Below, piece after piece: positions 2,454 through 44,572 of a stretch of 64,000 nucleotides of DNA (position 1 is the first letter of the stretch; every line of letters begins with the position of its first letter). The notes below the pieces were generated by a model. It ran no database searches. It was not told where the DNA came from and was given only the letters and a program-made list of their open reading frames with translations. The translations under genes were made by a program, and so were the position numbers. Location: positions 69,387 through 133,386 of the forward strand of contig CAYMPH010000010.1 of assembly GCA_964392365.1 (NCBI GenBank), written 5' to 3'. Origin of the DNA: an uncultured Leptospirales bacterium (GTDB lineage: Bacteria > Spirochaetota > UBA4802 > UBA5550).

Positions 2454-2807
2454 TTTTTCCTCTTCATTATATGAAATACAAAAATTTGATAAAAATACTT
2501 TTATAGTTTTTTAAAATAATTCTATTATCAATTTACTAATTGATAATATGCATAAAGTCTGTTAATAATGATGAGGAATGAAATACAAAACATCATAATC
2601 ACTATCAAAACCGTTTTATAAATACTTTTTATTCGTATACTCTTTTTTTTTAAGTTTGACTTATTTTGTTATATCTTACAGACAATGTAAGTTGTACACA
2701 ATGGCAATAAAAATATTATTTGTCCATCCATGTCTGGACAAAGTGAAAAAAAAATGGCTAATATTGATTTCACGGAAATTCCACATTGGGCTAAAAGATG
2801 GGTTCAA

Positions 2808-2844
2808 CGTCATATACACCAAGGGACGTTAGGCTAAAAACGCC
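2808..2844 (+). repeat. attC-like right half (R' core GTTAGGC at 2828-2834) preceding the DUF6615-like gene
   Basis: CGTCATATACACCAAGGGACGTTAGGCTAAAAACGCC contains a GTTRRRY core. AAACGCC (2838-2844) is complementary to GGCGTTT just after the gene's stop (3677-3683). Confidence 0.55.
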
Positions 2845-2868
2845 GTGTAATTTACTGAGGTATAATAA

Positions 2869-3672
2869 ATGAAACTTTGTGACACTTTTAGGAAACTTTC
2901 TTTTGAAACTTGGTACAAACTATATTCAGCAAAAACTGTTGATATGCAATTAGGTGAGGAAACAATTACTGATATTAATCTCCTTGAGCTTAAATTAAAA
3001 CATGGGAATGAAATAATAACAAAAACATTTACAAAACCAAAAGAATCAAATACTGGTGCTGATTGGGAATGGTGGTTAACAGGAAAATCCAAAAAATGGC
3101 TTGGAATAAGAATTCAGGCTAAAATATTAAATCATAAAACTAATAAATATGAACATTTGCATTATTATAAAAATAATAAACAAAAAACTAAAAAATATCA
3201 ATCCGATAGATTAGTTAAATCAAGCATGTCAGATTCAATAAAAAGAATTCCTTTATACTGTTTATATTCTTATTGGGATAATTTAAATTATAATGTTAAA
3301 TGGAAATGTGGTTCATACCCTGAAGTAATAGATAGTTACGGTTGCTCATTTATTAGTGCCTATGATGTCGTAAAGCTTCGTCAAGGAAATAAATGTAATT
3401 TATCGGATGTGTTAGATTACATGATTCCATGGCATTGTATTATCTGCTGTAAAGGTTTTGGTGGAGATGATTTGCCCAGTAGAGCATTAAATACAATTAT
3501 GGAATTAACTAAAATTTCATCTATAGTAGAAAATCCAAAAAATAAACCAAAATTTAAATTATATGATGAACCACCAGAGTATGTTAAATTATTACTAAGT
3601 AATGATTTAACTGAATTAACGGATGAGCATTTGAGAACAATAACAATTATCAATGAAAATTCAAATGAATAA
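2869..3672 (+). CDS. DUF6615-like PD-(D/E)XK nuclease-fold protein
   Basis: Motifs GEETITD...KPKESNTGADWEWW...IRIQAKIL (E..GAD..Q-A-K). Confidence 0.7.
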   Translation: MKLCDTFRKLSFETWYKLYSAKTVDMQLGEETITDINLLELKLKHGNEIITKTFTKPKESNTGADWEWWLTGKSKKWLGIRIQAKILNHKTNKYEHLHYYKNNKQKTKKYQSDRLVKSSMSDSIKRIPLYCLYSYWDNLNYNVKWKCGSYPEVIDSYGCSFISAYDVVKLRQGNKCNLSDVLDYMIPWHCIICCKGFGGDDLPSRALNTIMELTKISSIVENPKNKPKFKLYDEPPEYVKLLLSNDLTELTDEHLRTITIINENSNE

Positions 3673-3675
3673 TCA

Positions 3676-3715
3676 TGGCGTTTCATCGTCTCCAGACACG
3701 TTGTTTGAAATGCCA
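3676..3715 (+). repeat. Collapsed (internally deleted) attC-like site between two cassette genes
   Basis: TGGCGTTTCA-tcgtctccagacacgttgtt-TGAAATGCCA imperfect inverted repeat. It contains GTT at 3700-3702 but no AAC left core. Confidence 0.5.
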
Positions 3716-3743
3716 CACAAACTTATTTTAAAAAACCGCATCC

Positions 3744-5504
3744 ATGGAAGTTTGGAATGAATATAAAATGAAATTTTTACCATTTAATATCGACGTAAAA
3801 TACAATGTACAATTAAAGATAAATCAAAATAATAATTTTGTTTCCGGAGAACTTATTTTATCACCAAGCAAATTACCAAAACTAAGAATTATTGAATCAG
3901 TAATGAATAATGAGAAACTTTACAGCCTATTAAGTAAGAAAAACAATCTAAAACTAATTACATGCAAATCAGGAAACGAAAATTTTACATTAATCGATTG
4001 TGACATATATGATGATTTAATTTATCCTAAATATATCATTCTTGGTAATCCTTTTACTAAATATATTGATTTAAAATTTAATGGGGCATATATCTGCTTA
4101 AAGAACTTTAATGAATGGTTTATTAATAAAAGGGAAATAAAAAATTCCGTAAAAGGTTTCAAAAATAATATTTCTATGAAAGCTTTTAAATTCAAAATTA
4201 AAACAAGAACTAATAGAATTATTGAAATTTCAAATCGATACAATTGTGTCCCAAAACAAGATGATATTGATAAACAAAAGATTTTCATTGAAGAGTTTCC
4301 AACTATTATAATTAAACCAATAGATGATAGTTTTTCTTTAGATGAAATAATAAATTTTGATTATGATATAAGAATGATTTTTTCATTTCTTATTGGCGAA
4401 TATTCTAATACACTTTATTTATGGGGTTCTATAAAAGATGAAAATGGATATAATCAGTTATTGCCAATTTATTATTCGTGTAATTATATTTTAACAAATG
4501 GTTTAAGCAATTATAGAGAAGGCTTAATGCAGTATCGTTATCTTATTGAAAATAAAAAATTTAAACCTATATTTTCAAATTACTTTTCTAATATAAATTT
4601 TACAAAGGTATGGTCTCGATTATTCGGGATATTGAGTTATTCTGGTATTTGGCAATATGAAATATTAGGATATGTAAGCATTCTTAACAAATATGTTGAA
4701 AGTTATTCAAAAGGGAAAGGTGAAGTATTCCCAGAATCTTCATTTAAATATATTAAAGATGGACTCGTTAAAAAATTAGAAGAATTATTAAAAGATATAA
4801 AAAAAACTGATACGAATGAAAATATCTCTAAGACAATAAAAAATTCAATATTAAAAATTCCTAATACTGACATTGTTTCTTTTCAAGATAAATTTGACTT
4901 ATGGTTTTCTAAAATAAACAATGATATTAAGCAGATAATTAATTTCACAAAAGCTGACTTTAAGGTTTTAAAAGAAATTAGAGATGCGGCAGCTCATGGA
5001 AAGAATATTGATTATGGCTATGACCTTACTGGGATTTATAAACTTAACTACAAATTAACCTTGTTGCTTTATCACTTAGTTTATCTTGATTTAGGTTTAA
5101 GTGGGAGTGATTTTTTACAAAATCTATCTTTGTCAATTCATTCTTTAATAAGAAATTCGGATATTAATCAGAAACATCTTGATAGAGTTTCAGGAAGAAT
5201 CGATTTTATAAAAGTTGATGATACTACATTCGCAAAAATAAAATTATGTAAAAAATATGATATTATTCTTGAGAAAAATATAGAAAAAGAACTCTATATT
5301 TTTAATTATGAATTAACAAAATTCCTTCAAAATAATTGGCCTAAAGTAAGTGATACTTTTCATGATGTAAGAGATTACATAAAACATTTATATTCTGGGA
5401 ATGTTAATGAAGTAATATACAAAACAGCATATATTGAGAATAAGAATGAAGCTATTATGATATTTGGTTTATGTATAGTTGTAAAAATGAATTATTCTTC
5501 ATGA
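3744..5504 (+). CDS. apeA: ApeA-family protein (ApeA N-terminal domain + HEPN RNase domain), predicted anti-phage
   Basis: 586 aa with a beta-rich N-terminus and a C-terminal HEPN motif R-x4-H (EIRDAAAHG), followed by YLDLG-type helices; matches ApeA size and layout. Confidence 0.7.
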   Translation: MEVWNEYKMKFLPFNIDVKYNVQLKINQNNNFVSGELILSPSKLPKLRIIESVMNNEKLYSLLSKKNNLKLITCKSGNENFTLIDCDIYDDLIYPKYIILGNPFTKYIDLKFNGAYICLKNFNEWFINKREIKNSVKGFKNNISMKAFKFKIKTRTNRIIEISNRYNCVPKQDDIDKQKIFIEEFPTIIIKPIDDSFSLDEIINFDYDIRMIFSFLIGEYSNTLYLWGSIKDENGYNQLLPIYYSCNYILTNGLSNYREGLMQYRYLIENKKFKPIFSNYFSNINFTKVWSRLFGILSYSGIWQYEILGYVSILNKYVESYSKGKGEVFPESSFKYIKDGLVKKLEELLKDIKKTDTNENISKTIKNSILKIPNTDIVSFQDKFDLWFSKINNDIKQIINFTKADFKVLKEIRDAAAHGKNIDYGYDLTGIYKLNYKLTLLLYHLVYLDLGLSGSDFLQNLSLSIHSLIRNSDINQKHLDRVSGRIDFIKVDDTTFAKIKLCKKYDIILEKNIEKELYIFNYELTKFLQNNWPKVSDTFHDVRDYIKHLYSGNVNEVIYKTAYIENKNEAIMIFGLCIVVKMNYSS

Positions 5505-5521
5505 ATGCTTAACCTTCCTTT

Positions 5522-5546
5522 GCATTTCATATGTCTGGTGTATGTG
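5522..5546 (+). repeat. attC-like left half after apeA with the AAC core missing
   Basis: GCATTTCATAT-GTCTGGTGTATGTG matches the reverse complement of 3692-3713 (GCATTTCAAAC-AACGT-GTCTGG) except for two substitutions and a 5-nt gap removing AACGT. Confidence 0.5.
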
Positions 5547-5687
5547 CTGCGATTGCGTAAAGACTTGTATACCCCTACAAAGTCGGAATGGGAGAATGCC
5601 AAACGGAATAAAATTTGTTGAGCTTATTCATATACTGACGGGACGAAATATGTCTGAAAATGAAAAATCTATTGACAGACATAAAAC

Positions 5688-5740: not shown

Positions 5741-7450
5741 ATGAAAAGATATATTTCATTTTTTTCTATTCTACTTTTTGTTTTGAACTGTTATATAATT
5801 TTTGCTGAAACACCTGGGAAATATACAAATTATAAGGTCAAGCAAGGTGATTCATTAGTAAAAATATCTGAGAAGTTTTATTTAAACGGCTCAAATAATA
5901 ATGATGGGAAAATCAGTAAGAAATGGATTTTAATTTATGATACGAATAAAAATACCTTACCTAAAATAGAAATAACTGGTTTTAATTTAGATGCTTATGT
6001 AAAATTAAATATTGGTCAAGAACTTCGAATCCCACCAATTTCGATTAACCAAACACAAAAAGTTATTAATGAAACATTAAACAGACATCTAAAAAAAGCT
6101 ATAGAACAGCATTATGAACAATACTTGGCTAATAACTACAAAGAAGAAATTAAAAATCATAAAACACCTTTAGAATTTATATATAGTGAAAATAAATCAG
6201 GAAAGCTTAAAATAAATAAAGAGTTTTATGGAAGTGATATAAAACTCACCGATGGAACAATAATACCATCTACATGTATCAATGACTATAACTTATTTCC
6301 ATACCGAATAATTCAAAATCCTGATGCAAAAAAAACTATTTTCATCTTTCCAGAAAGTCATACTGATTTTGGAAGTAATAGATATGATAAATATTTATTA
6401 CTGAATTCTATTGCTGACTATAACAATATAAAAAATTTTCATGTATTTCTTGAATCAATGGATAGCGAGTTTGATAAAGAAAGATACTTTGATAATTATG
6501 AAAAGTTAAAAAATAAAATAGACTCATCAATAATACCAATAAAAAAATTTGATATCCTTTGTTCAGAATATAAGTCTTTCAGAGATAGTTCTAAATTTAG
6601 GGCAGCGATTAATCCATCCATGCTATTCTTTTATACTAAAAAAACATGTACAATTAGTGGCTCAGAGAAATACTCATCAATAAAAAAATTCGAGGATGAG
6701 TTGAATAATTTATTCAAAAATATAAAGACTAATAATGCAATAGAAATAAATAGATTAATTAAAGAACTAATTAGAGAACGTGATAATGATATTTCTCAAT
6801 CATATGAAAGATTACCAGATAATACAATTGGACTAATGGATATTGGAGTCGCTCATACTTTTAATCAATTACAACTGGCTAAAGAAAGGACGAATTATAA
6901 TTTAGTAGTTTTTTATCATCCCACATTAAAGCAATATGAAATAGGAGATAAAAAAAATAGTAAACTATATGCACATAAACAAGAACCTTCTGAGCACACG
7001 TCCGTGTTTGAAAACATAGCTGTGATATCAAAACCATATAAACAAAAAGTATATAATCCACAAAATGGCAAAATAATTTATCAAGATTTTATTGAAGACA
7101 TACTTAATAAAGGAACTTATACAGAGGAAGAAAAAATATTAATAAGAATTCGTGCCAAAGAATTAAAAGAAAAAGAGTTCTTTGCTAAAGACAGATTATT
7201 AAATAAAGGTGAAAAATACTGCAACGTTTTCCCAATTTATGGGAAAGGGTTTTTAGGCCGTTTACGAAATGGTAATAAAATATCATTTATTTTTATACCA
7301 CAGAATGGATTACCAGAAGCATATATCAATGATTTAGTTGCTTCTGATAAAATTGATTCTAATGATGGCTATTTCTTTATAAAATTTTGGACGTCAATTC
7401 CTATTACAAAAAAAGATATTTATATGAAACTTAAAATTGCACAACAATAA
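5741..7450 (+). CDS. Secreted LysM-domain protein with a TIKI/EreA/ChaN/RRSP-like domain
   Basis: Signal peptide, then LysM (YKVKQGDSLVKISEKF), then IFPESH, VFLES, RERD and IGVAH motifs in superfamily order. Confidence 0.55.
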   Translation: MKRYISFFSILLFVLNCYIIFAETPGKYTNYKVKQGDSLVKISEKFYLNGSNNNDGKISKKWILIYDTNKNTLPKIEITGFNLDAYVKLNIGQELRIPPISINQTQKVINETLNRHLKKAIEQHYEQYLANNYKEEIKNHKTPLEFIYSENKSGKLKINKEFYGSDIKLTDGTIIPSTCINDYNLFPYRIIQNPDAKKTIFIFPESHTDFGSNRYDKYLLLNSIADYNNIKNFHVFLESMDSEFDKERYFDNYEKLKNKIDSSIIPIKKFDILCSEYKSFRDSSKFRAAINPSMLFFYTKKTCTISGSEKYSSIKKFEDELNNLFKNIKTNNAIEINRLIKELIRERDNDISQSYERLPDNTIGLMDIGVAHTFNQLQLAKERTNYNLVVFYHPTLKQYEIGDKKNSKLYAHKQEPSEHTSVFENIAVISKPYKQKVYNPQNGKIIYQDFIEDILNKGTYTEEEKILIRIRAKELKEKEFFAKDRLLNKGEKYCNVFPIYGKGFLGRLRNGNKISFIFIPQNGLPEAYINDLVASDKIDSNDGYFFIKFWTSIPITKKDIYMKLKIAQQ

Positions 7451-7461
7451 AGGATTTTTTT

Positions 7462-8226
7462 ATGACCAACAACTTTATAATTAGTGATTTTGCAACAACA
7501 TATTCATTAGTAATGGATATTAGAAATTCAACAGTAAAGACGATTGATTTTGATGACCAAAAAAAAATTAATTATTATAATGGTCTTTTTGAATGTTTTT
7601 CAAATTCATTAAAGGACGCAGCATTAAAAACTGAAATTATCAAATATACAGGTGATGGATTAATTATTTCTATTAGAGATAAAAGAAAAATATTAAATTT
7701 ATTAGCTTTCGTTTTTTCTATTAAATTAAATTTTAACAATATTATGTATAAAAAAATTACGATGTCAGATTGGAAGTTCCGTTTTTCCATAGCTGCTGGT
7801 AAAGATATGGAAGTATATTTTAATGATATGAAAGATTTTGTTGGCGATTCTATACGAAGAGCCACAAGAATTCAAAGTTTATGCAAGGATGATTATCTAA
7901 GAATTGATTCAGAGATATTAAATGTTTGCCTTGAAATTTGTAATAATAATATTGATTCTGAGAAAATTGAAATCAATCGAGAAGATAACATAAAAATAGA
8001 AAAAGATATAACTTCAATATCAAAAATTAAATTGGCAAAAAATAGCGATAAGATTATTGCAATATTAGAACCAGATAAATCTAATGATGAAAATGGGTAT
8101 GCTTATAAATTTGAAAAATTGTCTGTTAGTGATAGAGATTTATTAAAACGAAATACTGATGAAAGCGTCAACATGAAAGATGGATTTGATATTGGAAACG
8201 GATTGAAATTAGTATTTAATAACTAA
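7462..8226 (+). CDS. Stand-alone class III nucleotidyl (adenylate/guanylate) cyclase-domain protein
   Basis: LVMDIRNST, IIKYTGDG, FRFSIAAG and DFVGDSIRRATRIQS motifs; no TM or sensor domain; ~100-aa C-terminal extension. Confidence 0.85.
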   Translation: MTNNFIISDFATTYSLVMDIRNSTVKTIDFDDQKKINYYNGLFECFSNSLKDAALKTEIIKYTGDGLIISIRDKRKILNLLAFVFSIKLNFNNIMYKKITMSDWKFRFSIAAGKDMEVYFNDMKDFVGDSIRRATRIQSLCKDDYLRIDSEILNVCLEICNNNIDSEKIEINREDNIKIEKDITSISKIKLAKNSDKIIAILEPDKSNDENGYAYKFEKLSVSDRDLLKRNTDESVNMKDGFDIGNGLKLVFNN

Positions 8227-8233
8227 AATAAAT

Positions 8234-9274
8234 ATGTCAAGAAATGTAGATAATATTTCAATTAAAACATATATCTATTATGTAGAATATGATACTCACA
8301 ATAAAATCATAATTTTAAGAAACTGTGCTGATAATTCTTCTAAATCAATTCAGCTACCCAAGTACCTTAAAATTGAATCATTTGATATTTTTATTAATGA
8401 ATTAGCCATTTGTTTTTCTTATTTTAAAATCCCTCAAATAAAAATTGATTCAAAGATACCAGACATATATTATTTTTGGATAAATATAGAAAAAGAAAAT
8501 TGGGAAGAAGGATTTTTCATGTGCAATGGAGCGAATATTCAATATGATTATTTTCATGGAGTATTTTCATTACCAAATCCTTGGCATCATTTAACAAAAA
8601 AAAATATCTTCACAGTTAATCCTAATGAAATCTTTTTTCATTTTGGACATAATGAAACTAATGAAAATATAGTGAAATATTTTAAAGAAAAAAATATACA
8701 AAACAGCAATATACATAATAATGCATTTTCAAGTGCTAAAAATGTAAAAAATAATTTTTCAATTATAATGGGAAATATTCAAAATATTTCGGATAACAAT
8801 TCAGATTGCATTAATATCATCAATTTTTTAAAAAATCGATTAAAATTAAATGTATATACTGAAAAAGCTGATATTGATAATTGTTTTGCAGGTAATAATA
8901 ATTTTATAATTGTTATTGCTCATCATTCTGAGGGAAAAATTGAATTAAAGAATGGTGATGGGTATAATTTAGATAATAAAATATCATTTGCAAATAATGA
9001 AAAATATTTACAATTTTGGTGTTGCAATATTGATATTAAGCAAAGCATCAATTGGAATTTGATTAATAATATTACTTTAAATATTCATGTGTCTGAAGCG
9101 GCAACGAAATATTTTAATGAACATATATTATCTTTAATTATTAATGACGACAGTATGGGCTTGAAAACCCTAATTTTTGATAAAAAAATAAAGAAGGATG
9201 AAATATTTAATCTATTCACTTGTCTTGATAATACAATAATTGATAAAATCAATAAATCCCCTCTATTATTATAA
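8234..9274 (+). CDS. Hypothetical protein with a divergent CHAT/caspase-like His-Cys protease domain
   Basis: KENWEEGF (cf. LPWE), FIIVIAHHSEG (His strand), YLQFWCCN (Cys strand) and SEAATKYF helix, in CHAT order. Confidence 0.45.
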   Translation: MSRNVDNISIKTYIYYVEYDTHNKIIILRNCADNSSKSIQLPKYLKIESFDIFINELAICFSYFKIPQIKIDSKIPDIYYFWINIEKENWEEGFFMCNGANIQYDYFHGVFSLPNPWHHLTKKNIFTVNPNEIFFHFGHNETNENIVKYFKEKNIQNSNIHNNAFSSAKNVKNNFSIIMGNIQNISDNNSDCINIINFLKNRLKLNVYTEKADIDNCFAGNNNFIIVIAHHSEGKIELKNGDGYNLDNKISFANNEKYLQFWCCNIDIKQSINWNLINNITLNIHVSEAATKYFNEHILSLIINDDSMGLKTLIFDKKIKKDEIFNLFTCLDNTIIDKINKSPLLL

Positions 9275-9357: not shown

Positions 9358-11301
9358 TTATTTGCTCAACAAACCCATTTCATAAAGAAACCTCGAGGGT
9401 TTCTTAGGCCAGTTTCTATACTTTTCTGCATAACTAAGCGTTAATGTTTCAATTGTTCTTGTTATTGCAACAAAACAATTTCGCCGTTCTTCTTCCATTT
9501 CAAGACTTCTATCTCCATTTTTAATACTTTGAAAAGAAGGTAGCTCATCTTCGACAAGTCCAATAAGATAAACATGATCAAATTCCTTACCTTTAGCTGC
9601 ATGGATAGTCATAAGAATTATTGTATTAGGTTTTGGAGTTGATTCTTTCGAACGCATTTGTAGTTCTTGCAAAAATGCCTCCAAGGTGATCTGTTCCCCT
9701 AAACTCAATTTTATATCTCTCAATAATTCATTCCATACTAATTTTTCTTCATCAAAACGAGCAAATGCTTCAACGTAAGCATTATCTTCATCAGACTGTT
9801 TAGTTTTAGTTAATGAATCAAACCAAGTTAACGCAAATCTGCTGAACTTTTCAAAATCTCTACTCTTTATTAAACAATTTAATATCTCATTGATAATACT
9901 TTTCACTCCATTTCCTATGTTTTTTTGGCTAACTAATGTTAACCAACTTTGCAAAAAACCTATATTTAAAGCTTGGGCTTGTGAAATTACTTTTTCTAAA
10001 TCTACTTCAATTAAAGTTAACTGTAAGAATGAACCATTTACAGCTTCTAAATAATGAAGATTATGAATATCAGTGGCAAGATGTAAAATAGAATGAAGCC
10101 AGATGAAAGGGGTACTTTCAAATTCATCTTTGCGTTGAGAAATAAAGGCAATTAAATTATTTTTATTTAAAGCGTTATATACTGTATCAAGCAATTTGCG
10201 ATTACGTCCTAAAATAACTATTTTTGATAGATGCTCAAAATGAAATTTCTTAATATCTTCTGCAATTCCATTTGCTTCAGCCTCAAAATTGGGAAAACAG
10301 TTTAATAATCGAACTGTATTTTCACTAAGAGTAGGACGAAATGCTTCGAGTGGTTTTTTATCTGTTGTTCTTAAAAAGTTATGCTGGATTAGATTATTCG
10401 CTAAATTAACAATTTCAGGGGGACATCTATAATTCATGGGCAATTGTATCACTTTTGGTGAAAAATTTGTGACAAATTCTTTTAGACGTTCATGACTTGC
10501 TCCTTTCCATTGGTAAATAATCTGATCATCATCAGCAACAATAAACAAATTACGATGTATATTTTCCGTAAGCGCAGTAATAAGACCATATTGTGCTTGA
10601 TCAGTGTCTTGAAATTCGTCTAAACAAATATATTGATAAACCGTACGATAACGTTTAGCAAAAGCAGGAAATTTAGTAAATAATTGATATGTTTTAAAAA
10701 TCAAAGAGTTAAAATCTAAAGCGTTCCGCTTATTTAATTCATTTTCATATGCAGGATAGATAATAGCAATCCTCTCCCCAAATTGTTTATCTGAAAATAT
10801 TTCCCTGCAATTTTCAGGTGAAATAAGCAATGATTTAAGCCGTTGTATAACAAGCAAAGTTTTTTTATCTAAATTGCTTACTATTGAACTGCTTTTTTTT
10901 GACTTTTCTACTGCTTCATCTAAAACAGCTTGTAGATCATTATTTTGAGAATAAATTTGAAAACTGGGATTTATTCCTAAATGAGTACCGTGTTGACGTA
11001 AGACATCTGAACAAAACGAATGAAAAGTTCCTAAAAAAAGACGATCTTCCTGTCCAGGAACTAATAAAGCTACACGATTTCGCATTTCATCAGCTGCTTT
11101 ATTCGTAAATGTTAAACCTAAAATTCGAAAATTACTCCCTATGCTATATTCCAATAAACTTGCGATACGACAAGTTAATACTCTCGTCTTTCCTGATCCT
11201 GGTCCAGCTAAAACTAATAGAGGACCATCTCCCCATTCGGCAACTTGTTTTTGAATTGGGCTTAATTCTTCAAAAGCCCTTTTTAATTCTATTGTACGCA
11301 T
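9358..11301 (-). CDS. gajB: UvrD/PcrA-like SF1 helicase, Gabija GajB-like
   Basis: AGPGSGKT, LTFTNKAA, DEFQD, NYRC, MTIHAAKGKEF and EERRNCFVAITR motifs; overlaps the 3' end of the OLD nuclease gene. Confidence 0.85.
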   Translation of the reverse strand: MRTIELKRAFEELSPIQKQVAEWGDGPLLVLAGPGSGKTRVLTCRIASLLEYSIGSNFRILGLTFTNKAADEMRNRVALLVPGQEDRLFLGTFHSFCSDVLRQHGTHLGINPSFQIYSQNNDLQAVLDEAVEKSKKSSSIVSNLDKKTLLVIQRLKSLLISPENCREIFSDKQFGERIAIIYPAYENELNKRNALDFNSLIFKTYQLFTKFPAFAKRYRTVYQYICLDEFQDTDQAQYGLITALTENIHRNLFIVADDDQIIYQWKGASHERLKEFVTNFSPKVIQLPMNYRCPPEIVNLANNLIQHNFLRTTDKKPLEAFRPTLSENTVRLLNCFPNFEAEANGIAEDIKKFHFEHLSKIVILGRNRKLLDTVYNALNKNNLIAFISQRKDEFESTPFIWLHSILHLATDIHNLHYLEAVNGSFLQLTLIEVDLEKVISQAQALNIGFLQSWLTLVSQKNIGNGVKSIINEILNCLIKSRDFEKFSRFALTWFDSLTKTKQSDEDNAYVEAFARFDEEKLVWNELLRDIKLSLGEQITLEAFLQELQMRSKESTPKPNTIILMTIHAAKGKEFDHVYLIGLVEDELPSFQSIKNGDRSLEMEEERRNCFVAITRTIETLTLSYAEKYRNWPKKPSRFLYEMGLLSK

Positions 11302-13229
11302 GATGGTGCAGCCTTCGAGACTATGTCCGAGATGATATTACTAAAAAATACAGGTATGCGAGAACTATTTATTTTATTTTCACGAAGTTTTTCAATCAAT
11401 TCATTCATATAACCTATTTTATCTTTTTTTATTTCAGAAGCAAGCATATTATAAAACTCAGGGTCAGTCTGGTCTATCGTTAAACTAATTTTATGTTTAC
11501 TAAGAATTTCTAAGTAATCTTGCATAAATCCGTTTTTTATAAGAAACATTTCCAAATCTGATTTTTCTTCTGGTATTGGAAGTACAAGTTTTTTAATTTC
11601 TTCAGTAGTGATTCCATATCCTTCAACTTGTTTTAGAAACTTTAGCCCTCCTTCATCATTATCACAAAACATAATCCATGGTATCTCAAAATTTTGTGCT
11701 AAACCAACAAATGCACCTGGTGAACCATTATTCTGAAAGTCTATAACGCTTATTCCGAATTGGTCTAATGGCTTGCCTAACAAATCTGCAAAATAATGGA
11801 TCAATAGATATTCACTTTGTCCTTCACATAGCAACCATGCACATGCAAATAGTATTTCACCTCTAACGCGTTTTGCATATGTATTAAGATCATTTAATTC
11901 ATCATCGCTTATAAAGTGTTGTGATTCATTATAAAGTTTTTTTATTTGGTCATGAACATCTTTTTGCTCTGGATAAATTTGAAGGAGAGACCTATATTCC
12001 TTTTGCTCCATTTTACCTTTGACATTAAGTTTTGAAATTACACTTTGATAATCATATTTTGTTGCGTGATTTTTACAAAATTTGGATAATTCCTCAGATT
12101 GAGGAAGTTTAGTAGAAAATTTACGCTTTATATAAAATACTTTAGAGGCTGATCCATTTTTGCGAAACAAGCGAAGTTGAGTGAATGGAATTTCCTGAAT
12201 AAAATATGGAGAATGACTTGAAATAATTTTTTGACTTTTTAGCTCATTCAAATTTTTAGATAATGCACGTGTTGCTTGAGGATGAAGATGTGCTTCTGGT
12301 TCTTCTAAAGCTAAAATTGCTTCGGTTTCTGGATAAAATGAAGGTTTTAGGAATACTTCGATGAAAGATTGAAAAAGAAAAAGTACAGACAAACTTTGTA
12401 TACCTTGTCCATGCCTGGAAATAGGAAAATTGAGTTCACTACCCCTTGCTTTAATTACAACCTCTGATTTTGACATCAAATCCCAATGATTTAAAGGTAA
12501 GGCTTGAATTGATGTATTTTGTTCATTTCCAAGTGTAATAACTTTTTGAATATTACTTAATACTGTTCTCACTTGCTCAAACCTTGGATCGGCTTTTAGT
12601 AGTTCATCATTAAGCTTAGTTAAATCTTCGTTTATTGACTTTCTTTGATCTTCACTTATATCAATATCACGAAGTATTCGCCCCCAGTATTGCGATCGAG
12701 AGGAAAACTCATTATCTGAGTCACGTAGAGCTGATAAATAAAATAAACGAATGTAAGAATGAAACTTCGGCAAGTTAGATTGACTTTTACCTTTTCCTCC
12801 TAACGGTTCACCATTTAAATCAAGAAATTCCCAATTATTGTTTATAACTTTTGAAATAGGATCAAATTTACTCGATGCTCGTAAACCAATAGAATCTAAA
12901 TCATTTATTGGATCAGTTTGAATTATTTCGTTTAATGAATTTCCCAAATCTTCAGGCCATTCATCAGATTTATCTTCTCGAAACCAAAGTTCTATAACAA
13001 TACCATCGCTGGTTTGTGGTGAATCACCAACTTTAGACATATAATAGTCATACTCATCGAATGGTTTTCCACGACCGGCTTGATTCCGTGGCAATAATAT
13101 TTTTAATGCATCAAGTAAAGCTGTTTTGCCTGAGTTATTTTCACCAACTAAAACAGAAGTATCATCAATAGGAATTACTACGTCCTGTAAACAACGAAAG
13201 TTTTTTATACTAATCTCTCTTAGCCTCAT
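11289..13229 (-). CDS. gajA: OLD-family ABC-ATPase + TOPRIM nuclease, Gabija GajA-like
   Basis: GENNSGKT Walker A, LEEPEAHLHP Walker B, and TOPRIM LLCEGQSE and CDND motifs; tandem with UvrD (class 2 OLD). Confidence 0.85.
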   Translation of the reverse strand: MRLREISIKNFRCLQDVVIPIDDTSVLVGENNSGKTALLDALKILLPRNQAGRGKPFDEYDYYMSKVGDSPQTSDGIVIELWFREDKSDEWPEDLGNSLNEIIQTDPINDLDSIGLRASSKFDPISKVINNNWEFLDLNGEPLGGKGKSQSNLPKFHSYIRLFYLSALRDSDNEFSSRSQYWGRILRDIDISEDQRKSINEDLTKLNDELLKADPRFEQVRTVLSNIQKVITLGNEQNTSIQALPLNHWDLMSKSEVVIKARGSELNFPISRHGQGIQSLSVLFLFQSFIEVFLKPSFYPETEAILALEEPEAHLHPQATRALSKNLNELKSQKIISSHSPYFIQEIPFTQLRLFRKNGSASKVFYIKRKFSTKLPQSEELSKFCKNHATKYDYQSVISKLNVKGKMEQKEYRSLLQIYPEQKDVHDQIKKLYNESQHFISDDELNDLNTYAKRVRGEILFACAWLLCEGQSEYLLIHYFADLLGKPLDQFGISVIDFQNNGSPGAFVGLAQNFEIPWIMFCDNDEGGLKFLKQVEGYGITTEEIKKLVLPIPEEKSDLEMFLIKNGFMQDYLEILSKHKISLTIDQTDPEFYNMLASEIKKDKIGYMNELIEKLRENKINSSRIPVFFSNIISDIVSKAAPSCVQ

Positions 13230-20090: not shown

Positions 20091-23000
20091 TTATAGCCAG
20101 AGCTTATAATGGTAGCCCATGTCTACATATAAACTAAATGGACTTGTTGGAATGTCAATAAGCGGATTTATATCTGAACTATCTGTAGTTTTACCGGATA
20201 TTTCAGCTGGAATATGTAATGGATTTGGATCACCAGCATCAATACATTTACTTTTTGTAAGAATGGGTGTCTGCTTTAAAAAATAATATCCGATTGAATA
20301 GCCGAAGAATTTAACACTTGGATTTTGTAGTGCAAATGAAGGATTACTGTTAATATTACCATCTACAATCAGAAAGGAATTCGAACAAGAGTATGTTGCG
20401 TTTATAATACCAGAATTTGATATATTATTATTCCATATTATTGAATTAAGAATATTTATTGTACCTGTTGAAGTATTAGAAGTATTATATATTCCGCTGC
20501 CTGACGCTGAAATATTGTCTGCGATAGTACAGTTTGTTAATGATGCTGTTCCTTCATTGAATAATCCAGCTCCATTTGTTATTCCTATAATATTTTTCAT
20601 AATTAAACAATTGATTGCATAAAGATTTCCAGTTGGTGCGTTATATATTGCTCCGCCGGAAAAAACATTGTTATTTTCGCCAAAAACTGTATTTGTAAAT
20701 TTTGCCTTGTTCTTGTTATAAAATGTTCCATAAGTGTATAGCTTAGGATCGAATGCTTGAGGATCAGTGTTTTCTATAGGTATCGATTTTGTTATTCCAA
20801 AATTCCCTTGAAATAATGTTTCGTTAATGACGCTTTCTGATGCGCTGTCTGAATAAATTGCAGCGCCATGACCTGAAGTTTTATTTTCCTTAAAAATTGA
20901 TCCTGTAATTAAATAATTTGAAGTCTCCTTATTCTCTATATGAGCTGCCCCGCCTGAACACCTAATAGCAGGTAAAGTAGGATCAGAAATATCATTTTCA
21001 TTATTTGCAGAATTAGAATCAAATTCCGAGTTTTCAATTTTAAATTGAGCACCTATTATACTGTTATAATGATAAATTGCACCTCCCTTATTTAAAGCTG
21101 AATTATTAGTAAAAAAGCAAACAGTAAAGGCATAGACAGCTTTTGATACTGAATTATATTGATAAATTGCTCCTCCGGACAAGTCGAGTGATCCCCAGAT
21201 TGGAGTTGGCAAAGTCTCTAAGTCAAACATTGTTTTATTATTAGAAAATATTGTATTTACTATAGTTGTATTGTCCCTTACCTGAAGATCGCAGATAGCT
21301 CCGCCTTTAGAGCCTGATATTGATTTAGCGTAGTTAGAATCAAATGTTGAATTATTGATTAGAAGAAAAATATGCCTGTAGCCGCAGATTGCCCCGCCTT
21401 TTGTATCTTTATCCTGTACTGAGTTTTCCGCTTTGTTAAATGATAGAGTGCTGTTGTATATTTCACAAGAGCTATCAATATTATTATATATTGCTCCTCC
21501 ATACCTGAATGCTTTATTTGATTTTAATTCTGAATATGTTGGAATATTATTTTCATCAAAATATGTATCAATTCTAAGAATTCCTGAAGAATAGATTGCA
21601 CCTCCATTTTCCAGGGCTGTATTATCATTAATGGTTGAGCCGTAAATATGTAATGAACCTGTGGAATAAATACCTCCGCCATATTTAATATTTGTTTTAT
21701 TATTATGAATGGTAGAAATATTAATTTTAAGACCATTGTGTCTGGCGTTATATATACCGCCGCCGATAGGCTCGCCGGTTGTGCTAACTTTAATTGTATT
21801 GTCTGATATGATACATTTAGATAGAGTAAGAGATGTATTTGTCAGAGACTGAGTATATATGCCGCCTCCAGCTGATCCTGCTTCATTATTTTGAATTTGG
21901 CAGTTTTCTATGCTGGTTTTTCCTGTTGTATCGCTGATACCACCGCCGTAATTTTTAGCTGTATTTTGTGATATTGTACAATTTTTAATTATTGAATTTC
22001 CATTATTGGAAATTCCTCCGCCATCGTTATTTTTGGATTCATTGCTCATTATGTTATAATTTTCAATAGTGATGGGTGTTATTTGTGTTCCGCAATATTG
22101 ATCTATGTAAATAGCTCCACCGCTTCCTGAGGATTTATTTGATGACATATTACCTTTATTTGTGGTGTAAGTCATTATTGAATTTGTAACTTTGCCAAAA
22201 TATACGGCTCCGCCGTTTGCCGCGGCAATATTCCCTGTAAAATTATTATCAATCAGCTGGACGTTTGCTGTATTTCCCAAATAAACAGCGCCGCCCATCC
22301 CTGCTTCATTGGATGTAAAGATACAGTTTTTAATAAAAATATCGCTTGAGTTTATGATAAAAATTCCACCGCCTAAATAGCTATCTCCAAAACCGGTAGC
22401 CCGGCCATTTTGAATTGTAAAACCGTCAATTGTTACATTGGCAACGAGCTCCCCTCTTAAAATAGGATTTGCGTTGTTTCCATCAAGGATAGTTGTAAAA
22501 GTTCTATTTTGCTTGTTAATTTCATTTCCCTGGAATCCGCCATACAGCGAAACATCTGTTTTAAGCTCCTTAAATAAAGTATATGTCCCTTGAGCCACCC
22601 ATATTTCAGACCCCGCAGTAGAAGCATCAATGGCTTGTGAAAGTTCTTTATAAGCTGTATCCCAGGATTTTCCATCAAATAAACCATCCCATCCAGGGGC
22701 ATTAGCCCAAACATATATTACATTTGCAGGAACAACATTTACTGTAATTACGGATGAACTTTCGGCACCTTCTGAATCGGTGACTTTATAATTAAATAAA
22801 AATTTTCCAAAGTAGTTTTTACCAGCTGTAAATTTCCATTTTGTTCCAGTATATATAAGTTTACCATAATCCGGGGGAATGGGATCTATAAGAAAAATTA
22901 AATTCCCGCCATCCGGATTAATTACTGGAAAATCAAATTCAATCCATCCGGGTTCAAGTGGTTCTTCATGATTTTTAACTACCAGGCGCTGAGGCAACGC

Positions 23001-23963
23001 TACGGGGTCATCATGTACAGGGTTTACAGTGACTGTGACTGTTATTACATTGCTGTCGCTTTTACCATCATTTGCATAATAGGTAAAAGTAAACGTTCCA
23101 TTGTAATGATCTTTTGGCGTATATGTTACAATTGATCCGCTTATTGAATATGTTCCATATAAAGGATTTAATGAAACAATATATTGAAGCGGATCATTAT
23201 CAACATCTGTTACATTAAGTGGTATTGCCACAGGCATATGTTCATATGTTGATTGATTCGGCAAAGCGTGTGCAACAGGCGGGTCATTATCCGGATCAAT
23301 AGTTATTGTAACAGTTGCAGGCAAGCTGTCATTGAAACCCGGTGCTCTTGCGATAAAGATGAAAGAGTCTGAATCTGTTCCATTAAAATCGTCAGCCGGA
23401 TCGTATTCCCATTCTAAATTACTTATTTTAGTGAGTGTTCCATGTAATGGCTGCTGTTGAATAATAATATCAAGCGTAGCTAAATTCTTATTGTTAACTC
23501 TTAATTGAAATCTTACTGGTGTATCTTCCTTAGTTGCAACAGTACTATTATAAGCAGTCAGATCGTCTCCTATAAAAAGCGAGATTGTGGATATATTGCT
23601 CGAAGAAGTGCCGTCAGTTACATGGAATTTGAATGAATCAGGGCCATTATAGGTTGGATCATCCGGAGTATAGGTAAATTTATTTTTTTCGGGTTTATTC
23701 TGGGTTAATTTTCCTTTTACAGGGTAAGAGTCTATCATAAAGGCTACTGAATTGGAATTTTTATTAGTTTGCAGTTCAATTTCAACCGGCTGGTTCATAG
23801 GTGTTCGATAATATGCCGAAGATGTTTGAAATGGAATATAAATAGATTGAGAAACAATATCTTTAACATCGCTGTTTGAGCAGCCTGCGAGCATAAACAT
23901 GAATAACAGTATGGGATATAATATTTTTTTACTTTTCATATATTTTATATTTATTTTACTCAT
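20091..23963 (-). CDS. Large surface lipoprotein: tandem Ig/cadherin-like domains + Pmp-like (GGAI/FxxN) beta-helix
   Basis: Lipobox MLAGC; DGPDSF/DNDPP/YTP Ig repeats; more than 10 GGAI-type and FxxN motifs; C-terminal SKCIDAG. Confidence 0.8.
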   Translation of the reverse strand: MSKINIKYMKSKKILYPILLFMFMLAGCSNSDVKDIVSQSIYIPFQTSSAYYRTPMNQPVEIELQTNKNSNSVAFMIDSYPVKGKLTQNKPEKNKFTYTPDDPTYNGPDSFKFHVTDGTSSSNISTISLFIGDDLTAYNSTVATKEDTPVRFQLRVNNKNLATLDIIIQQQPLHGTLTKISNLEWEYDPADDFNGTDSDSFIFIARAPGFNDSLPATVTITIDPDNDPPVAHALPNQSTYEHMPVAIPLNVTDVDNDPLQYIVSLNPLYGTYSISGSIVTYTPKDHYNGTFTFTYYANDGKSDSNVITVTVTVNPVHDDPVALPQRLVVKNHEEPLEPGWIEFDFPVINPDGGNLIFLIDPIPPDYGKLIYTGTKWKFTAGKNYFGKFLFNYKVTDSEGAESSSVITVNVVPANVIYVWANAPGWDGLFDGKSWDTAYKELSQAIDASTAGSEIWVAQGTYTLFKELKTDVSLYGGFQGNEINKQNRTFTTILDGNNANPILRGELVANVTIDGFTIQNGRATGFGDSYLGGGIFIINSSDIFIKNCIFTSNEAGMGGAVYLGNTANVQLIDNNFTGNIAAANGGAVYFGKVTNSIMTYTTNKGNMSSNKSSGSGGAIYIDQYCGTQITPITIENYNIMSNESKNNDGGGISNNGNSIIKNCTISQNTAKNYGGGISDTTGKTSIENCQIQNNEAGSAGGGIYTQSLTNTSLTLSKCIISDNTIKVSTTGEPIGGGIYNARHNGLKINISTIHNNKTNIKYGGGIYSTGSLHIYGSTINDNTALENGGAIYSSGILRIDTYFDENNIPTYSELKSNKAFRYGGAIYNNIDSSCEIYNSTLSFNKAENSVQDKDTKGGAICGYRHIFLLINNSTFDSNYAKSISGSKGGAICDLQVRDNTTIVNTIFSNNKTMFDLETLPTPIWGSLDLSGGAIYQYNSVSKAVYAFTVCFFTNNSALNKGGAIYHYNSIIGAQFKIENSEFDSNSANNENDISDPTLPAIRCSGGAAHIENKETSNYLITGSIFKENKTSGHGAAIYSDSASESVINETLFQGNFGITKSIPIENTDPQAFDPKLYTYGTFYNKNKAKFTNTVFGENNNVFSGGAIYNAPTGNLYAINCLIMKNIIGITNGAGLFNEGTASLTNCTIADNISASGSGIYNTSNTSTGTINILNSIIWNNNISNSGIINATYSCSNSFLIVDGNINSNPSFALQNPSVKFFGYSIGYYFLKQTPILTKSKCIDAGDPNPLHIPAEISGKTTDSSDINPLIDIPTSPFSLYVDMGYHYKLWL

Positions 23964-29513: not shown

Positions 29514-30968
29514 ATGTATAAATTTATAATAATTATAATTGTGCCATTCATATTATTTTCATGTTCAAATAATAATGATAAGCCATACAAAATAAACGGT
29601 AAAATAAATGGCAACACATCCTCTTTGGCAGATGTAACATTAACGCTTAAACATTCCCGTTACGGAACATTTACTGTAAAAACAGATTCAAATGGAAATT
29701 ATACACTTCCAGACCTTTGGGATGGGGAATATACTATAACTCCGCAAAAGGAAGGTATTATATTTGAACCAAAAGAAGCTGTTGTTTCAATAAATGGGGA
29801 TATAAGCTGTAGTTTCACAGGTATTATTACCTGGGATAAGATAATTCCAGTTCCATCCGGTACATACGATTCCGGTGCAAATGATGTTGTAATATCCAAT
29901 GACGGCTATTTTATAGCAGGATATATTGATACAGAATTAAACATGTTTGATTTCAGGGCTGTTAAGCTTGATCTTTTTGGTGAAACATCATGGGAAAAAA
30001 CATACGGCACCAGCTTTTCTGATTTTGCCTTTTCAGCAGTAAAACAAAATTCAAACACAGGATATGTGATTATTGGAAATTCAGATACTGCTAGTTCATA
30101 TAAAGCAAGAGTTATTAAAATTGATGAAACTGGAACAATTCAGAAGGACGGCTTAATTGACCAGAATTACTTATTCGGCGTAAACGACTTTGATGAAGTA
30201 TTTAAAATTATTAGATCTTCAGATGGTGTAGGATATATTATTGCAGGCCAGACCAAAATAGCAAATAATGCAAATGTATGGGTACTTAAGCTCAATGAGA
30301 GTTTAGGTCAAATAGGGGAAATATTTTTTGGCGACATTAAAGATGATTATGCAAATGATATATGTGTAACTTCAACCGGTTACATTACCGTAGGCGGAAC
30401 AAAATCAAAGCTGGCCTCTGATAAAATAATCAACGGATATTTCCTTAGTACTGATTCTGTTCTTAGTATTGGTTCTGCAATGGATTTAATTAACCCCGGA
30501 GGATATGAAGAGGAATTCAATTCAATAGCACCTACAACTGATGGAGGATACATTGTAACCGGCTTTACAAGGGAAATCGAAACCTCCCCCTATGCTCTTG
30601 TTATAATTAAAAAAACTTCAGGCCTGGCTGATGAATGGAGAAATGTGGTACACGGAACCTATGGAACAGCCTCCAGAGGATTCAGCGCTATACAGACATC
30701 TGACGGTGGATATGCTGTTGCAGGAGAAAGTTTTAATTCTTCAACAAGATATGATATAGTTCTGATAAAATTTGATTCATTGGGAAATATGCTATGGAAA
30801 AGAACATATCCCGGACAATATGATGATACGGCTTTTTCTTTAAAGGAAACACCTGACTCAGGTTTTATTATAGCAGGAACAACTGAAGGCATAAACAGTA
30901 AAGACTCTATAAGGGTTTTAAAAACAGACCGTGAAGGCAAGATATACGGGCAAAGTTATGATGAGTAA
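29514..30968 (+). CDS. Lipoprotein: carboxypeptidase-regulatory-like domain + beta-propeller (DGGYI(I/V)xG repeats)
   Basis: Lipobox LFSC; TDSNGNYT...GEYTITP; repeated WEKTYG / TSDGGYAVAG units. Confidence 0.75.
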   Translation: MYKFIIIIIVPFILFSCSNNNDKPYKINGKINGNTSSLADVTLTLKHSRYGTFTVKTDSNGNYTLPDLWDGEYTITPQKEGIIFEPKEAVVSINGDISCSFTGIITWDKIIPVPSGTYDSGANDVVISNDGYFIAGYIDTELNMFDFRAVKLDLFGETSWEKTYGTSFSDFAFSAVKQNSNTGYVIIGNSDTASSYKARVIKIDETGTIQKDGLIDQNYLFGVNDFDEVFKIIRSSDGVGYIIAGQTKIANNANVWVLKLNESLGQIGEIFFGDIKDDYANDICVTSTGYITVGGTKSKLASDKIINGYFLSTDSVLSIGSAMDLINPGGYEEEFNSIAPTTDGGYIVTGFTREIETSPYALVIIKKTSGLADEWRNVVHGTYGTASRGFSAIQTSDGGYAVAGESFNSSTRYDIVLIKFDSLGNMLWKRTYPGQYDDTAFSLKETPDSGFIIAGTTEGINSKDSIRVLKTDREGKIYGQSYDE

Positions 30969-44522: not shown

Positions 44523-44572
44523 TTTAAAATTTGAAAAGTAATTTATAATAGATTAAATTTTTTAAAAATCAT

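What the first reader, a model, noticed from the sequence alone, without database searches (positions are those of the whole stretch)
2808..5546. Two defence-type genes embedded as integron-like cassettes whose attC sites have lost their AAC cores
Seen: each gene starts just after a GTT core and ends at a sequence complementary to its own start. The DUF6615-like cassette runs G^TTAGGCTAAAAACGCC ... GGCGTTT (3677). The ApeA cassette runs G^TTGTTTGAAATGCC ... GCATTTCATAT-GTCTGG (5522). Both left halves lack the AAC: the central site is collapsed to ~40 bp, and the last site has a 5-nt gap removing AACGT. No integron integrase is in the window. Known: start/end self-complementarity is the hallmark of integron cassettes, and integron arrays are known to carry anti-phage genes. 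Inference: a CALIN-like array whose defence cassettes were fixed in place by attC decay.
Basis: partly seen in the sequence, partly recalled or inferred. Interest (0 to 1): 0.7.

Follow-up and report, generated by a model that had tools for sequence, protein, structure and literature searches.

The report
Possible fossil integron cassettes, two defence genes
Two probable anti-phage genes in an AT-rich spirochaete-like genome are bracketed by the short core motifs of integron recombination sites, so they may be old gene cassettes now stuck in place. No working recombination site or integron integrase is present, and the evidence falls short of proof.

Summary
The "start/end self-complementarity" is only 7 nt (AAACGCC/GGCGTTT) and 8 nt (TGAAATGC/GCATTTCA). 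That is the usual length for genes in this window, and it is only marginal after correcting for composition (P≈0.04 and 0.03).

Two attC covariance models, built here from genuine attC sites, find no attC anywhere in the 64 kb. The central site scores -1 bit. There is no integron integrase. This is therefore not a CALIN by definition.

The integron idea still gains independent support:
- About a fifth of DUF6615 homologues (15/85 by core signature, more with the model) sit in textbook cassettes with the same geometry.
- An ApeA-family homologue is a genuine single-gene cassette.
- Only four perfect RYYYAAC…GTTRRRY pairs occur in the window, and two of them bracket exactly this two-gene block: 2802-2834 and 5507-5623.

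It keeps its AAC, starts 2 nt after the ApeA-like stop, and is 6/7 complementary to GTTAGGC at 2828.

Verdict: plausible (about 50%) fossil cassette(s) inside a defence island next to Gabija. This would be a new member of a known kind. The details given for the central and last sites are not supported.

The parts
2756..2791 (+). Mini-palindrome S0 (GGCTAAT...ATTGGGC). It is the top hit of both attC covariance models in the whole window, but it is not significant.
   Evidence: It scores 11.5 bits (E 1.6) with model R1 and 10.1 bits (E 4.4) with model R2. Its 3' end ACATTGGGCTAAAA repeats ACGTTAGGCTAAAA at 2826-2839 (family D18, P 0.03).
2802..2834 (+). Left boundary site S1: R''-like GTTCAAC, a 6-bp stem AACGTC/GACGTT, then R' GTTAGGC. 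At 33 nt it is too short to be an attC.
   Evidence: It is one of only four perfect RYYYAAC...GTTRRRY pairs in the 64 kb. The hairpin has z about -2.8 to -3.0. The model scores it 7.9 bits. GTTRRRY within 65 nt upstream occurs for this gene alone among 40 ORFs.
2869..3672 (+). DUF6615-family gene (267 aa). Function is unknown. The family is frequently carried in integron cassettes.
   Evidence: Pfam PF20320 scores 58 bits against a 23.8-bit cut-off. There are 112 homologues. Cassette context is shown. The structure model has pLDDT 92, and its only fold neighbour is Rep15.
3677..3714 (+). Central spacer site S2: a 9-bp hairpin GGCGTTTCA/TGAAATGCC with a 20-nt loop that contains GTTGTTT (3700-3706).
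   Evidence: See: z is -1.5 on the + strand and +0.2 on the - strand. The attC model scores it -1 bit. It has no AAC and no canonical GTTRRRY.
3744..5504 (+). ApeA-family HEPN gene (586 aa), containing the R-x4-H motif RDAAAH (R413-H418).
   Evidence: Pfam HEPN_Apea scores 24.2 bits against a 24.4-bit cut-off. HMMER finds 177 cluster representatives. Of 40 aligned sequences, 29 hit HEPN_Apea and 22 hit ApeA_NTD1. H418 is invariant and R413 nearly invariant.
5507..5623 (+). Right boundary: a candidate degenerate attC of 117 nt. R'' is GCTTAAC (5507-5513), R' is GTTGAGC (5617-5623), and an inner stem pairs TTCCTTTGCATT with AATGC-C-AAA-C-GGAA.
   Evidence: Both cores are perfect. They are 6/7 complementary to each other and to GTTAGGC at 2828. 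The fold is no better than shuffles: z is -0.9 on the top strand and +1.1 on the bottom strand. Neither attC model detects it.
5522..5546 (+). The latter is the right arm of a 10-of-11 inverted repeat with CATATACACCA at 2811-2821.
   Evidence: Shuffle tests give P 0.034 for TGAAATGC/GCATTTCA and 0.057 for ATACACCA. The site lies inside the left arm of the 5507-5623 candidate, downstream of its AAC.

Best explanation
The block 2802-5623 most likely consists of one or two former integron gene cassettes that are now immobile.

Its cargo is two stand-alone candidate anti-phage genes:
- a DUF6615-family protein of unknown activity;
- an ApeA-family HEPN RNase. ApeA proteins are abortive-infection tRNA anticodon nucleases activated by a small ligand (bioRxiv 10.64898/2026.01.26.701840).

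The block lies in a defence island next to a Gabija system, in an AT-rich genome that looks like Spirochaetota.

Shown:
- the gene families;
- canonical R''/R' core boxes at both outer boundaries, with typical cassette geometry;
- homologues of both genes inside genuine cassettes elsewhere;
- no IntI and no model-detectable attC in the window.

Inferred:
- The block entered by IntI-type recombination, either in an ancestor or at a secondary site.
- The attC hairpins have since eroded. The left site is cut down to 33 nt. The central spacer is 71 nt, with at most about 30 nt left of any site. The right site has full length but a weak stem.
- The genes can therefore no longer be excised.
- They are probably expressed from their own or read-through promoters as ordinary chromosomal defence genes.
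For: (1) Among the 40 large ORFs, only the DUF6615 gene has a GTTRRRY 8-65 nt upstream, and only the ApeA-like gene has an RYYYAAC within 30 nt after its stop.

(2) Perfect RYYYAAC...GTTRRRY pairs 30-170 nt apart occur four times in 64 kb. Two of them sit in the two spacers that flank this pre-specified block. The other two lie inside the coordinates of unrelated genes. The chance that one of three other pairs falls in that 236-nt spacer is about 0.01.

(3) GCTTAAC is 6/7 complementary to GTTAGGC and to GTTGAGC.

(4) The best hit of both independently built attC models, over 128 kb of search space, lies 11 nt upstream of the left boundary site.

(5) DUF6615 genes are cassette cargo in 15/85 loci by core signature, against 2.2% of controls. 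Model-detected attCs abut at least 11 of them, always co-oriented with the gene. In signature-positive loci GTT lies 19-65 nt before the start; here it is 41 nt.

(6) The ApeA-family homologue P0117 is a 1.8-kb cassette between attCs at 3865-3963 and 5704-5794 of L098.

(7) The two families are never adjacent in about 88 other DUF6615 loci. This fits independent acquisition rather than a conserved operon.

(8) Precedent in spirochaetes: attC-like sites without an identifiable AAC, and loss of intI with attCs left behind, are both described in Treponema (PMC3607928).
Against: - No site reaches attC model significance: 11.5, 7.9, -1 and 4.5 bits, against 17-76 bits for genuine sites in the locus searches.
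- The 117-nt candidate folds no better than shuffles. Its bulged bases lie on the arm opposite to that of the attCs used for training.
- The models were trained mostly on G+C-rich attCs and may be insensitive to AT-rich ones.
- Each individual complementarity is only marginal (P 0.03-0.06), and several features were found by looking, so the combined significance is inflated.
- The closest DUF6615 relatives lack attC flanks.
- As of 2013, integrons were reported in spirochaetes only within Treponema (PMC3607928).
- No related genome was available to show an empty site or intact sites.
- Public contigs show no structural variant at about 5-7x depth.
Confidence: 0.5

Rival explanations
1. This is an ordinary defence island with no integron ancestry. 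The two genes arrived by some other route of horizontal transfer, and the short complements and core-like heptamers at their borders are chance matches in G+C-richer intergenic patches.
For: - The exact complements are 7-8 nt, as for any gene in the window.
- The shuffle P values are only 0.03-0.06.
- The sites show no significant direct similarity to one another.
- Neither model finds an attC.
- The folds are not better than shuffles.
- Four core pairs in the window is about the number expected by chance.
- The nearest homologues L013 and L014 have no attC.
- A Gabija system and unknown genes lie alongside, as in any defence island.
Against: - Two of the four canonical core pairs bracket exactly the flagged block, with cassette-like distances to the start and stop codons.
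- The top model hit of the whole window lies at the same boundary.
- Both gene families are recurrent cassette cargo.
Confidence: 0.4
2. There are two separate cassettes. Each gene starts at G|TT and ends at the complement of its own start. The central attC has collapsed to about 40 bp, and the last attC has lost AACGT by a 5-nt deletion.
For: - Each family occurs elsewhere as a single-gene cassette and never as a pair.
- GTT at 3700 lies 44 nt before the ATG. In the genuine ApeA cassette of L098, the R' box starts 44 nt before the ATG and the attC ends 38 nt before it.
- GGCGTTT starts 5 nt after the DUF6615 stop, where an R'' region would be expected.
- S1 and S2 share the layout ...CA(A/T)C-GTC...GAC-(AC)GTT.
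Against: - GTTGTTT is not GTTRRRY, and the central site scores -1 bit.
- The complement of the ApeA 'start' (GCATTTCA, 5522) lies downstream of an intact canonical R'' (GCTTAAC, 5507). It therefore cannot be that cassette's R'', and no AAC has been lost there.
- The complements are at chance length.
Confidence: 0.2
3. The block is a different kind of mobile or inserted element, bounded by the inverted repeat CATATACACCA (2811-2821) / TGGTGTATGTG (5536-5546). It could be a transposon remnant, or an insertion into the loop of a pre-existing palindrome.
For:
- The one real transposon in the window (IS256 family, 43233-44459) shows a flank complement of similar information content.
Against: - The shuffle P is only 0.057.
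- No transposase lies inside the block, no target duplication was seen, and no other copy of either arm occurs in 64 kb with up to 3 mismatches.
- Both arms lie inside the core-box sites and are explained equally well by them.
Confidence: 0.05

Closest known systems
[quoted passage not shown] Treponema phagedenis
   Same: Co-oriented accessory or defence genes lie between RYYYAAC...GTTRRRY core pairs with no intI nearby. Spirochaete precedents exist for attC-like sites without an AAC and for integrase loss (PMC4889954, PMC3607928).
   Different: [quoted passage not shown] One site is 33 nt, the central one is essentially gone, and the units hold two large genes (2.8 kb).
Integron cassettes that encode anti-phage defence systems (sedentary chromosomal integrons as defence 'biobanks')
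   Same: Single-gene, compact defence candidates are carried as cassette cargo (bioRxiv 10.1101/2024.07.02.601686). DUF6615 and ApeA-family homologues are found here in genuine cassettes.
   Different: The window copy is not in a functional array. The host is an AT-rich spirochaete-like bacterium, not a Vibrio or another Pseudomonadota member. DUF6615 has no demonstrated defence activity.
ApeA (HEPN abortive-infection tRNA anticodon nuclease)
   Same: The protein is full length (about 560-590 aa). The homologues align over most of the length. The family shows the ApeA_NTD1 plus HEPN_Apea architecture and a conserved R-x4-H motif.
   Different: The window protein itself is just below Pfam's cut-off (24.2 against 24.4 bits). 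It hits no PADLOC ApeA model. It is at most 39% identical to any other protein found.
Fused or attC-truncated cassettes of mobile resistance integrons
   Same: Two genes of independent origin are joined by a spacer too short to hold an attC, so they would move, or stay, as one unit.
   Different: This comparison rests on my own knowledge of class 1 integron arrays. No flanking intact attC or integrase is present here to show that the fusion happened inside an integron.

Membership tests
integron attC site | Inverse core sites: R'' RYYYAAC at the 5' end and R' GTTRRRY at the 3' end | tested here: met
This holds for 2802-2834 (GTTCAAC...GTTAGGC) and 5507-5623 (GCTTAAC...GTTGAGC).
integron attC site | Length about 57-141 bp (my own knowledge; Treponema attCs measure 63-132 bp, PMC3607928), with L''/L' boxes and a variable loop | tested here: not met
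   S1 is 33 nt, S0 is 36 nt and S2 is about 30-38 nt. Only 5507-5623 (117 nt) is in range.
integron attC site | An imperfect palindrome whose single strand folds into R-box and L-box stems, with extrahelical bases on the '' arm | tested here: inconclusive
   In 5507-5623 the top strand pairs the R boxes and a 12-bp inner stem. However, z is -0.9 on the top strand and +1.1 on the bottom strand, and the bulges lie on the opposite arm to the training attCs. S1 forms only a 6-bp stem.
integron attC site | Recognised by an attC covariance model | tested here: not met
   Models R1 and R2 were built from 15 and 37 genuine attCs. In the locus searches they score attCs, held-out ones included, at 17-76 bits. 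The window maximum is 11.5 bits (E 1.6). S1 scores 7.9 bits and S2 scores -1 bit. For 5507-5623 no full-length match is reported; a short fragment at its 3' end (5598-5623) scores 4.5 bits. IntegronFinder's own model was not available.
CALIN | At least two attC sites clustered together | tested here: not met
   The window has no model-detectable attC. The definition is taken from PMC4889954.
CALIN | No integron integrase nearby | tested here: met
   The only tyrosine recombinase lies 41 kb away. It scores 46 bits against 265 for TIGR02249 and 18 bits against 435 for PRK15417. ORFs within about 4.4 kb upstream and 8 kb downstream have no integrase domain.
integron gene cassette | The unit begins at G|TTRRRY and ends at an R'' complementary to its own start | tested here: inconclusive
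   For the whole block, GTTAGGC (2828) against GCTTAAC (5507) is 6/7. For each gene separately there are only 7-8-nt internal complements without cores, at background length. The strict signature that flags 15/85 homologue loci does not flag the window.
DUF6615 (PF20320) | Pfam score above the gathering threshold | tested here: met
   It scores 58.1 bits against 23.8. There are 112 homologues, nearly all annotated PF20320.
ApeA | ApeA_NTD1 plus HEPN_Apea domains with a catalytic R-x4-H motif | tested here: inconclusive
   The window protein scores 24.2 bits on HEPN_Apea against a 24.4-bit cut-off and has no direct NTD1 hit. Of 40 aligned sequences, 29 hit HEPN_Apea and 22 hit NTD1. The RDAAAH motif is conserved. 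The window protein hits no PADLOC model. No solved relative was found by sequence.
integron integrase IntI | A tyrosine recombinase that matches the IntI-specific models | tested here: not met
   See, as above.

The most novel reading that the evidence does not exclude
The 30-36-bp palindromes at 2756-2791, 2802-2834 and 3684-3706 share the layout ...CA(A/T)C-GTC...GAC-(AC)GTT. They may not be decay products. They could instead be a working class of miniature attC-like sites, used by a non-IntI tyrosine recombinase (for example the one at 46365-47423) to shuffle defence genes in an AT-rich spirochaete lineage that has no canonical integron.
Probability: 0.05. Interest if true: 0.7.

Novelty: new member of a known kind. 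Interest (0 to 1): 0.3.

Why it matters
If the ancestry is real, this locus shows how integron cargo becomes ordinary chromosomal defence genes once the attC hairpins erode. It would also extend integron traces to a spirochaete lineage outside Treponema.

The more useful by-product is independent of the window. DUF6615, a family with no literature, is carried in integron cassettes in about a fifth of the loci sampled, and here it sits beside ApeA and Gabija. That makes it a reasonable candidate for an untested single-gene defence function.

Tried and rejected
- **Known RNA elements.** Rfam found nothing at gathering level or at permissive thresholds, and there are no tRNA or tmRNA genes. The G+C-rich patches are not known RNAs.
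- **Split small gene.** I tested whether the patches at 2730-2837 and 5534-5620 are halves of a small gene broken by an insertion (they look RelE-like by eye). Pfam gave no hit even at E 10.
- **Conserved two-gene system.** Rejected. No ApeA-like gene lies in any of about 88 DUF6615 loci.
- **Empty site or intact relatives.**
  - The flank protein found nothing in the genome and metagenome collections.
  - The ApeA alignment was unusable or found nothing.
  - All flank proteins are singletons.
  - The only plasmid hit is an unrelated Arsenophonus HEPN gene.
- **Read evidence.** The four rock-metagenome runs provide only low-depth contigs identical to the window, with no joints.
- **Terminator reading of the central hairpin.** No T-run follows it. 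The only terminator-like site is at 2719-2742 on the - strand.
- **Third boundary.** GCTCAAC at 9364 is the only copy in the window and the exact complement of GTTGAGC at 5617. It lies in the last codons of gajB, whose homology runs to the end of the protein, so I treat it as coincidence.
- **Structures.** A single-sequence model of the ApeA-like protein was useless (pLDDT 33). My first strict hairpin scanner missed genuine attCs and was replaced.
- **Xer/dif-type sites.** Considered by eye only; I saw no resemblance to the conserved XerD arm.
Full report
**What is there**

The window is AT-rich: 32% G+C overall and about 22-25% around the finding. Named best hits to its cytochrome bd subunit I are uncultured Spirochaetota at 64-69% identity. 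One unnamed relative reaches 93%. Public contigs from four rock-metagenome runs are identical to the window.

The finding covers two co-oriented genes:
- 2869-3672 encodes a 267-aa DUF6615 protein (Pfam 58 bits against a 23.8-bit cut-off).
- 3744-5504 encodes a 586-aa protein that scores 24.2 bits on HEPN_Apea, just under the 24.4-bit cut-off.

An exhaustive HMMER search finds 177 cluster representatives for the second protein, most of them full length. Of 40 aligned sequences, 29 hit HEPN_Apea and 22 hit ApeA_NTD1. H418 of the HEPN R-x4-H motif (RDAAAH, R413-H418) is invariant and R413 nearly so. It is a divergent ApeA-family protein. ApeA is an abortive-infection HEPN RNase that cuts tRNA anticodon loops when a ligand binds (bioRxiv 10.64898/2026.01.26.701840).

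Downstream lie a three-gene operon of unknown function (5741-9274) and a clear Gabija system: GajB at 9358-11301 and GajA at 11289-13229, scoring 842 and 734 bits in PADLOC. The setting is a defence island.

**Checking the observation**

The complementary runs are 7 nt (AAACGCC/GGCGTTT) and 8 nt (TGAAATGC/GCATTTCA). Neither includes GTT or AAC.

The same measurement on 40 ORFs of the window gives 5-9 nt, most often 7. After weighting for G+C and shuffling the actual flanks, P is 0.043 and 0.034. An outer inverted repeat (CATATACACCA at 2811 / TGGTGTATGTG at 5536) gives P 0.057. Direct similarity among the three sites is not significant. None of the site sequences recurs elsewhere in the window.

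**Direct tests for attC and IntI**

I harvested genuine attC sites from loci that carry DUF6615 homologues. I aligned them, derived the R-box/L-box consensus structure, and built a covariance model. A second, broader model came from 37 sites.

In the locus searches these models score attCs, held-out ones included, at 17-76 bits. The recovered sites include 126-nt Vibrio- and Oceanospirillum-type sites and one with 41% G+C.

With filters off over all 64 kb and both strands, the best window scores are 11.5 and 10.1 bits (E 1.6 and 4.4), at 2756-2791. Searched locally:
- the left site 2802-2834 scores 7.9 bits;
- the central site scores -1 bit;

The only tyrosine recombinase (46365-47423) scores 46 bits against a 265-bit cut-off for the integron-integrase model. 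[quoted passage not shown] The models were trained mostly on G+C-rich sites, which limits how much weight this negative result can bear.

**Evidence that nevertheless favours an integron origin**

1. Cassette context of DUF6615.
   - Of 85 DUF6615 loci, 15 show GTT-core sequence 19-65 nt before the start, with its reverse complement ending in AAC just after the stop. Control positions show this in 2.2% of cases.
   - Examples are GTTAGGCAGCC/GGCTGCCTAAC (L019) and GTTATGTGGTTA/TAACCACATAAC (Vibrio mytili, L042).
   - The broader model places co-oriented attCs directly against at least 11 of these genes. Some lie in long arrays, such as L055 with six attCs and L082 with eight.
2. Cassette context of ApeA. 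Of three ApeA-family homologues whose contexts I could fetch, one (P0117) is a clean 1.8-kb cassette. It lies between attCs at 3865-3963 and 5704-5794 of L098, in an array that also holds PIN-HicB and Mrr cassettes.
3. Core boxes around the block.
   - Only the DUF6615 gene has a perfect GTTRRRY 8-65 nt upstream (GTTAGGC, 41 nt before the ATG).
   - Only the ApeA-like gene has a perfect RYYYAAC within 30 nt of its stop (GCTTAAC, 2 nt after it).
   - Perfect RYYYAAC...GTTRRRY pairs 30-170 nt apart occur only four times in the window. Two are at 2802-2834 and 5507-5623, the two spacers that flank the block. The other two lie inside the coordinates of the IS256-family transposase gene and the FecR-domain gene.
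   - GCTTAAC is 6/7 complementary to both GTTAGGC and GTTGAGC.
4. The top hit of both models in the whole window falls 11 nt upstream of the left site. That is roughly a 1% coincidence, given that the three spacers together cover 722 nt.

The last site has not lost its AAC. The canonical R'' sits at 5507-5513, and the string GCATTTCA (5522) lies downstream of it, inside what would be the L'' arm. There it pairs with AATGC at 5592-5596.

The central GTTGTTT is not a GTTRRRY core. Nothing in the 71-nt spacer resembles an attC beyond a 9-bp hairpin with unremarkable stability (z -1.5 and +0.2).

The 117-nt right site has the right length and cores. However, it folds no better than shuffled sequence (z -0.9 on the top strand, +1.1 on the bottom strand). 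Its bulged bases lie on the arm opposite to that of the training attCs.

**Interpretation**

The two families are never neighbours elsewhere, and each occurs elsewhere as a single-gene cassette. If the ancestry is integron-type, two cassettes fused by loss of the middle attC is the natural reading.

A single two-gene cassette is equally compatible with the 6/7 match between the start and end cores.

The alternative is that these are chance heptamers in a defence island. It remains nearly as likely for three reasons. Every individual statistic is modest. Several features were found by inspection. The closest DUF6615 relatives (60% and 54% identity, also AT-rich) have no such flanks.

No related genome could be retrieved to show an empty or intact site. 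The metagenome contigs show no variant.

Treponema integrons provide precedents for attC-like sites that lack an AAC and for integrase loss that leaves attCs behind (PMC3607928). Defence genes as integron cargo are established (bioRxiv 10.1101/2024.07.02.601686).

**DUF6615 itself**

The alignment-based model is confident (pLDDT 92, pTM 0.90). Its only structural neighbours in the PDB are human Rep15 chains (E 3e-4, TM 0.37-0.49), matching a weak Pfam hit to Rab15_effector. No solved relative is found by sequence, and no paper mentions the family.

Several residues are invariant and fall on consecutive predicted strands after two helices: E59, G63, D65, E67, and Q83-A84-K85. Four cysteines are also conserved. 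This pattern suggests a nuclease-type D...(Q)xK core. That is my inference and is not supported by the fold search.

**Verdict**

The most likely description is a pair of stand-alone defence-type genes that descend from integron cassette(s) and are no longer mobile. My confidence is about 0.5. The locus is not a CALIN or an attC array by any testable definition. It would be a new member of a known kind, of modest interest.

Noticed in passing
window 9358-13229 (- strand): A complete Gabija system. GajB (9358-11301) scores 842 bits and GajA (11289-13229) scores 734 bits in PADLOC. It converges on the + strand block that contains the finding.
   Followed up: yes
window 5741-9274 (+ strand): A tight three-gene operon (569 aa with a weak LysM-domain match near the N-terminus (Pfam E 1e-4), 254 aa, 346 aa; spacers of 11 and 7 nt). 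It has no assignable Pfam function and no PADLOC match. All three proteins are singletons in the 15-billion-protein collection. It lies between the ApeA-like gene and Gabija, so it is a candidate unknown defence system.
   Followed up: partly
window 9364-9370 and 5617-5623: GCTCAAC occurs once in the 64 kb. It is the exact reverse complement of the GTTGAGC that ends the candidate attC, and it sits 90 nt after the last gene of the three-gene operon. It lies within the last codons of gajB, whose homology runs to residue 646 of 647, so it is probably coincidence.
   Followed up: partly
window 2719-2742: An 8-bp hairpin (TTTGTCCA...TGGACAAA) followed by a T-run on the - strand. This is a terminator-like site facing into the block from the right, with no - strand gene to terminate.
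   Followed up: no
window 43233-47423: An IS256/Mutator-family transposase (43233-44459, -), an HTH protein (44573-45124, -) and a generic tyrosine recombinase (46365-47423, +; far below every curated cut-off, including IntI and XerC/D). This may be another integrated element.
   Followed up: partly
loci L019, L020, L031, L032, L035, L040-L043, L048, L049, L052, L055, L082 and others: DUF6615 (PF20320) has no literature. It is integron-cassette cargo in roughly a fifth of the 85 loci sampled, from cyanobacteria-free groups such as Vibrio, Oceanospirillum, Limnobacter and Microbulbifer and from several uncultured lineages. The attC is always co-oriented with the gene.
   Followed up: yes
L098 1-7110 (also L099, L100): A metagenomic cassette array with six attCs (27-42 bits). 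Its cassettes include Pmp3, PIN-HicB, an Mrr-type restriction enzyme and an ApeA-family gene. It is a clean example of a defence-rich integron array.
   Followed up: partly
window 20091-23963 and 30931-41346: Two very large surface-type proteins. One is 1290 aa with bacterial Ig, cadherin and Chlamydia PMP repeats. The other is a 3471-aa ORF that was not examined.
   Followed up: no
L096 1100-2900: This is the closest ApeA-family homologue (P0114, 39% identity; contig 22% G+C). ATTAGGC lies about 50 nt before its start and ATCTAAC 27 nt after its stop. No attC is detected by the model. It echoes the window's pattern, but it is weak.
   Followed up: partly
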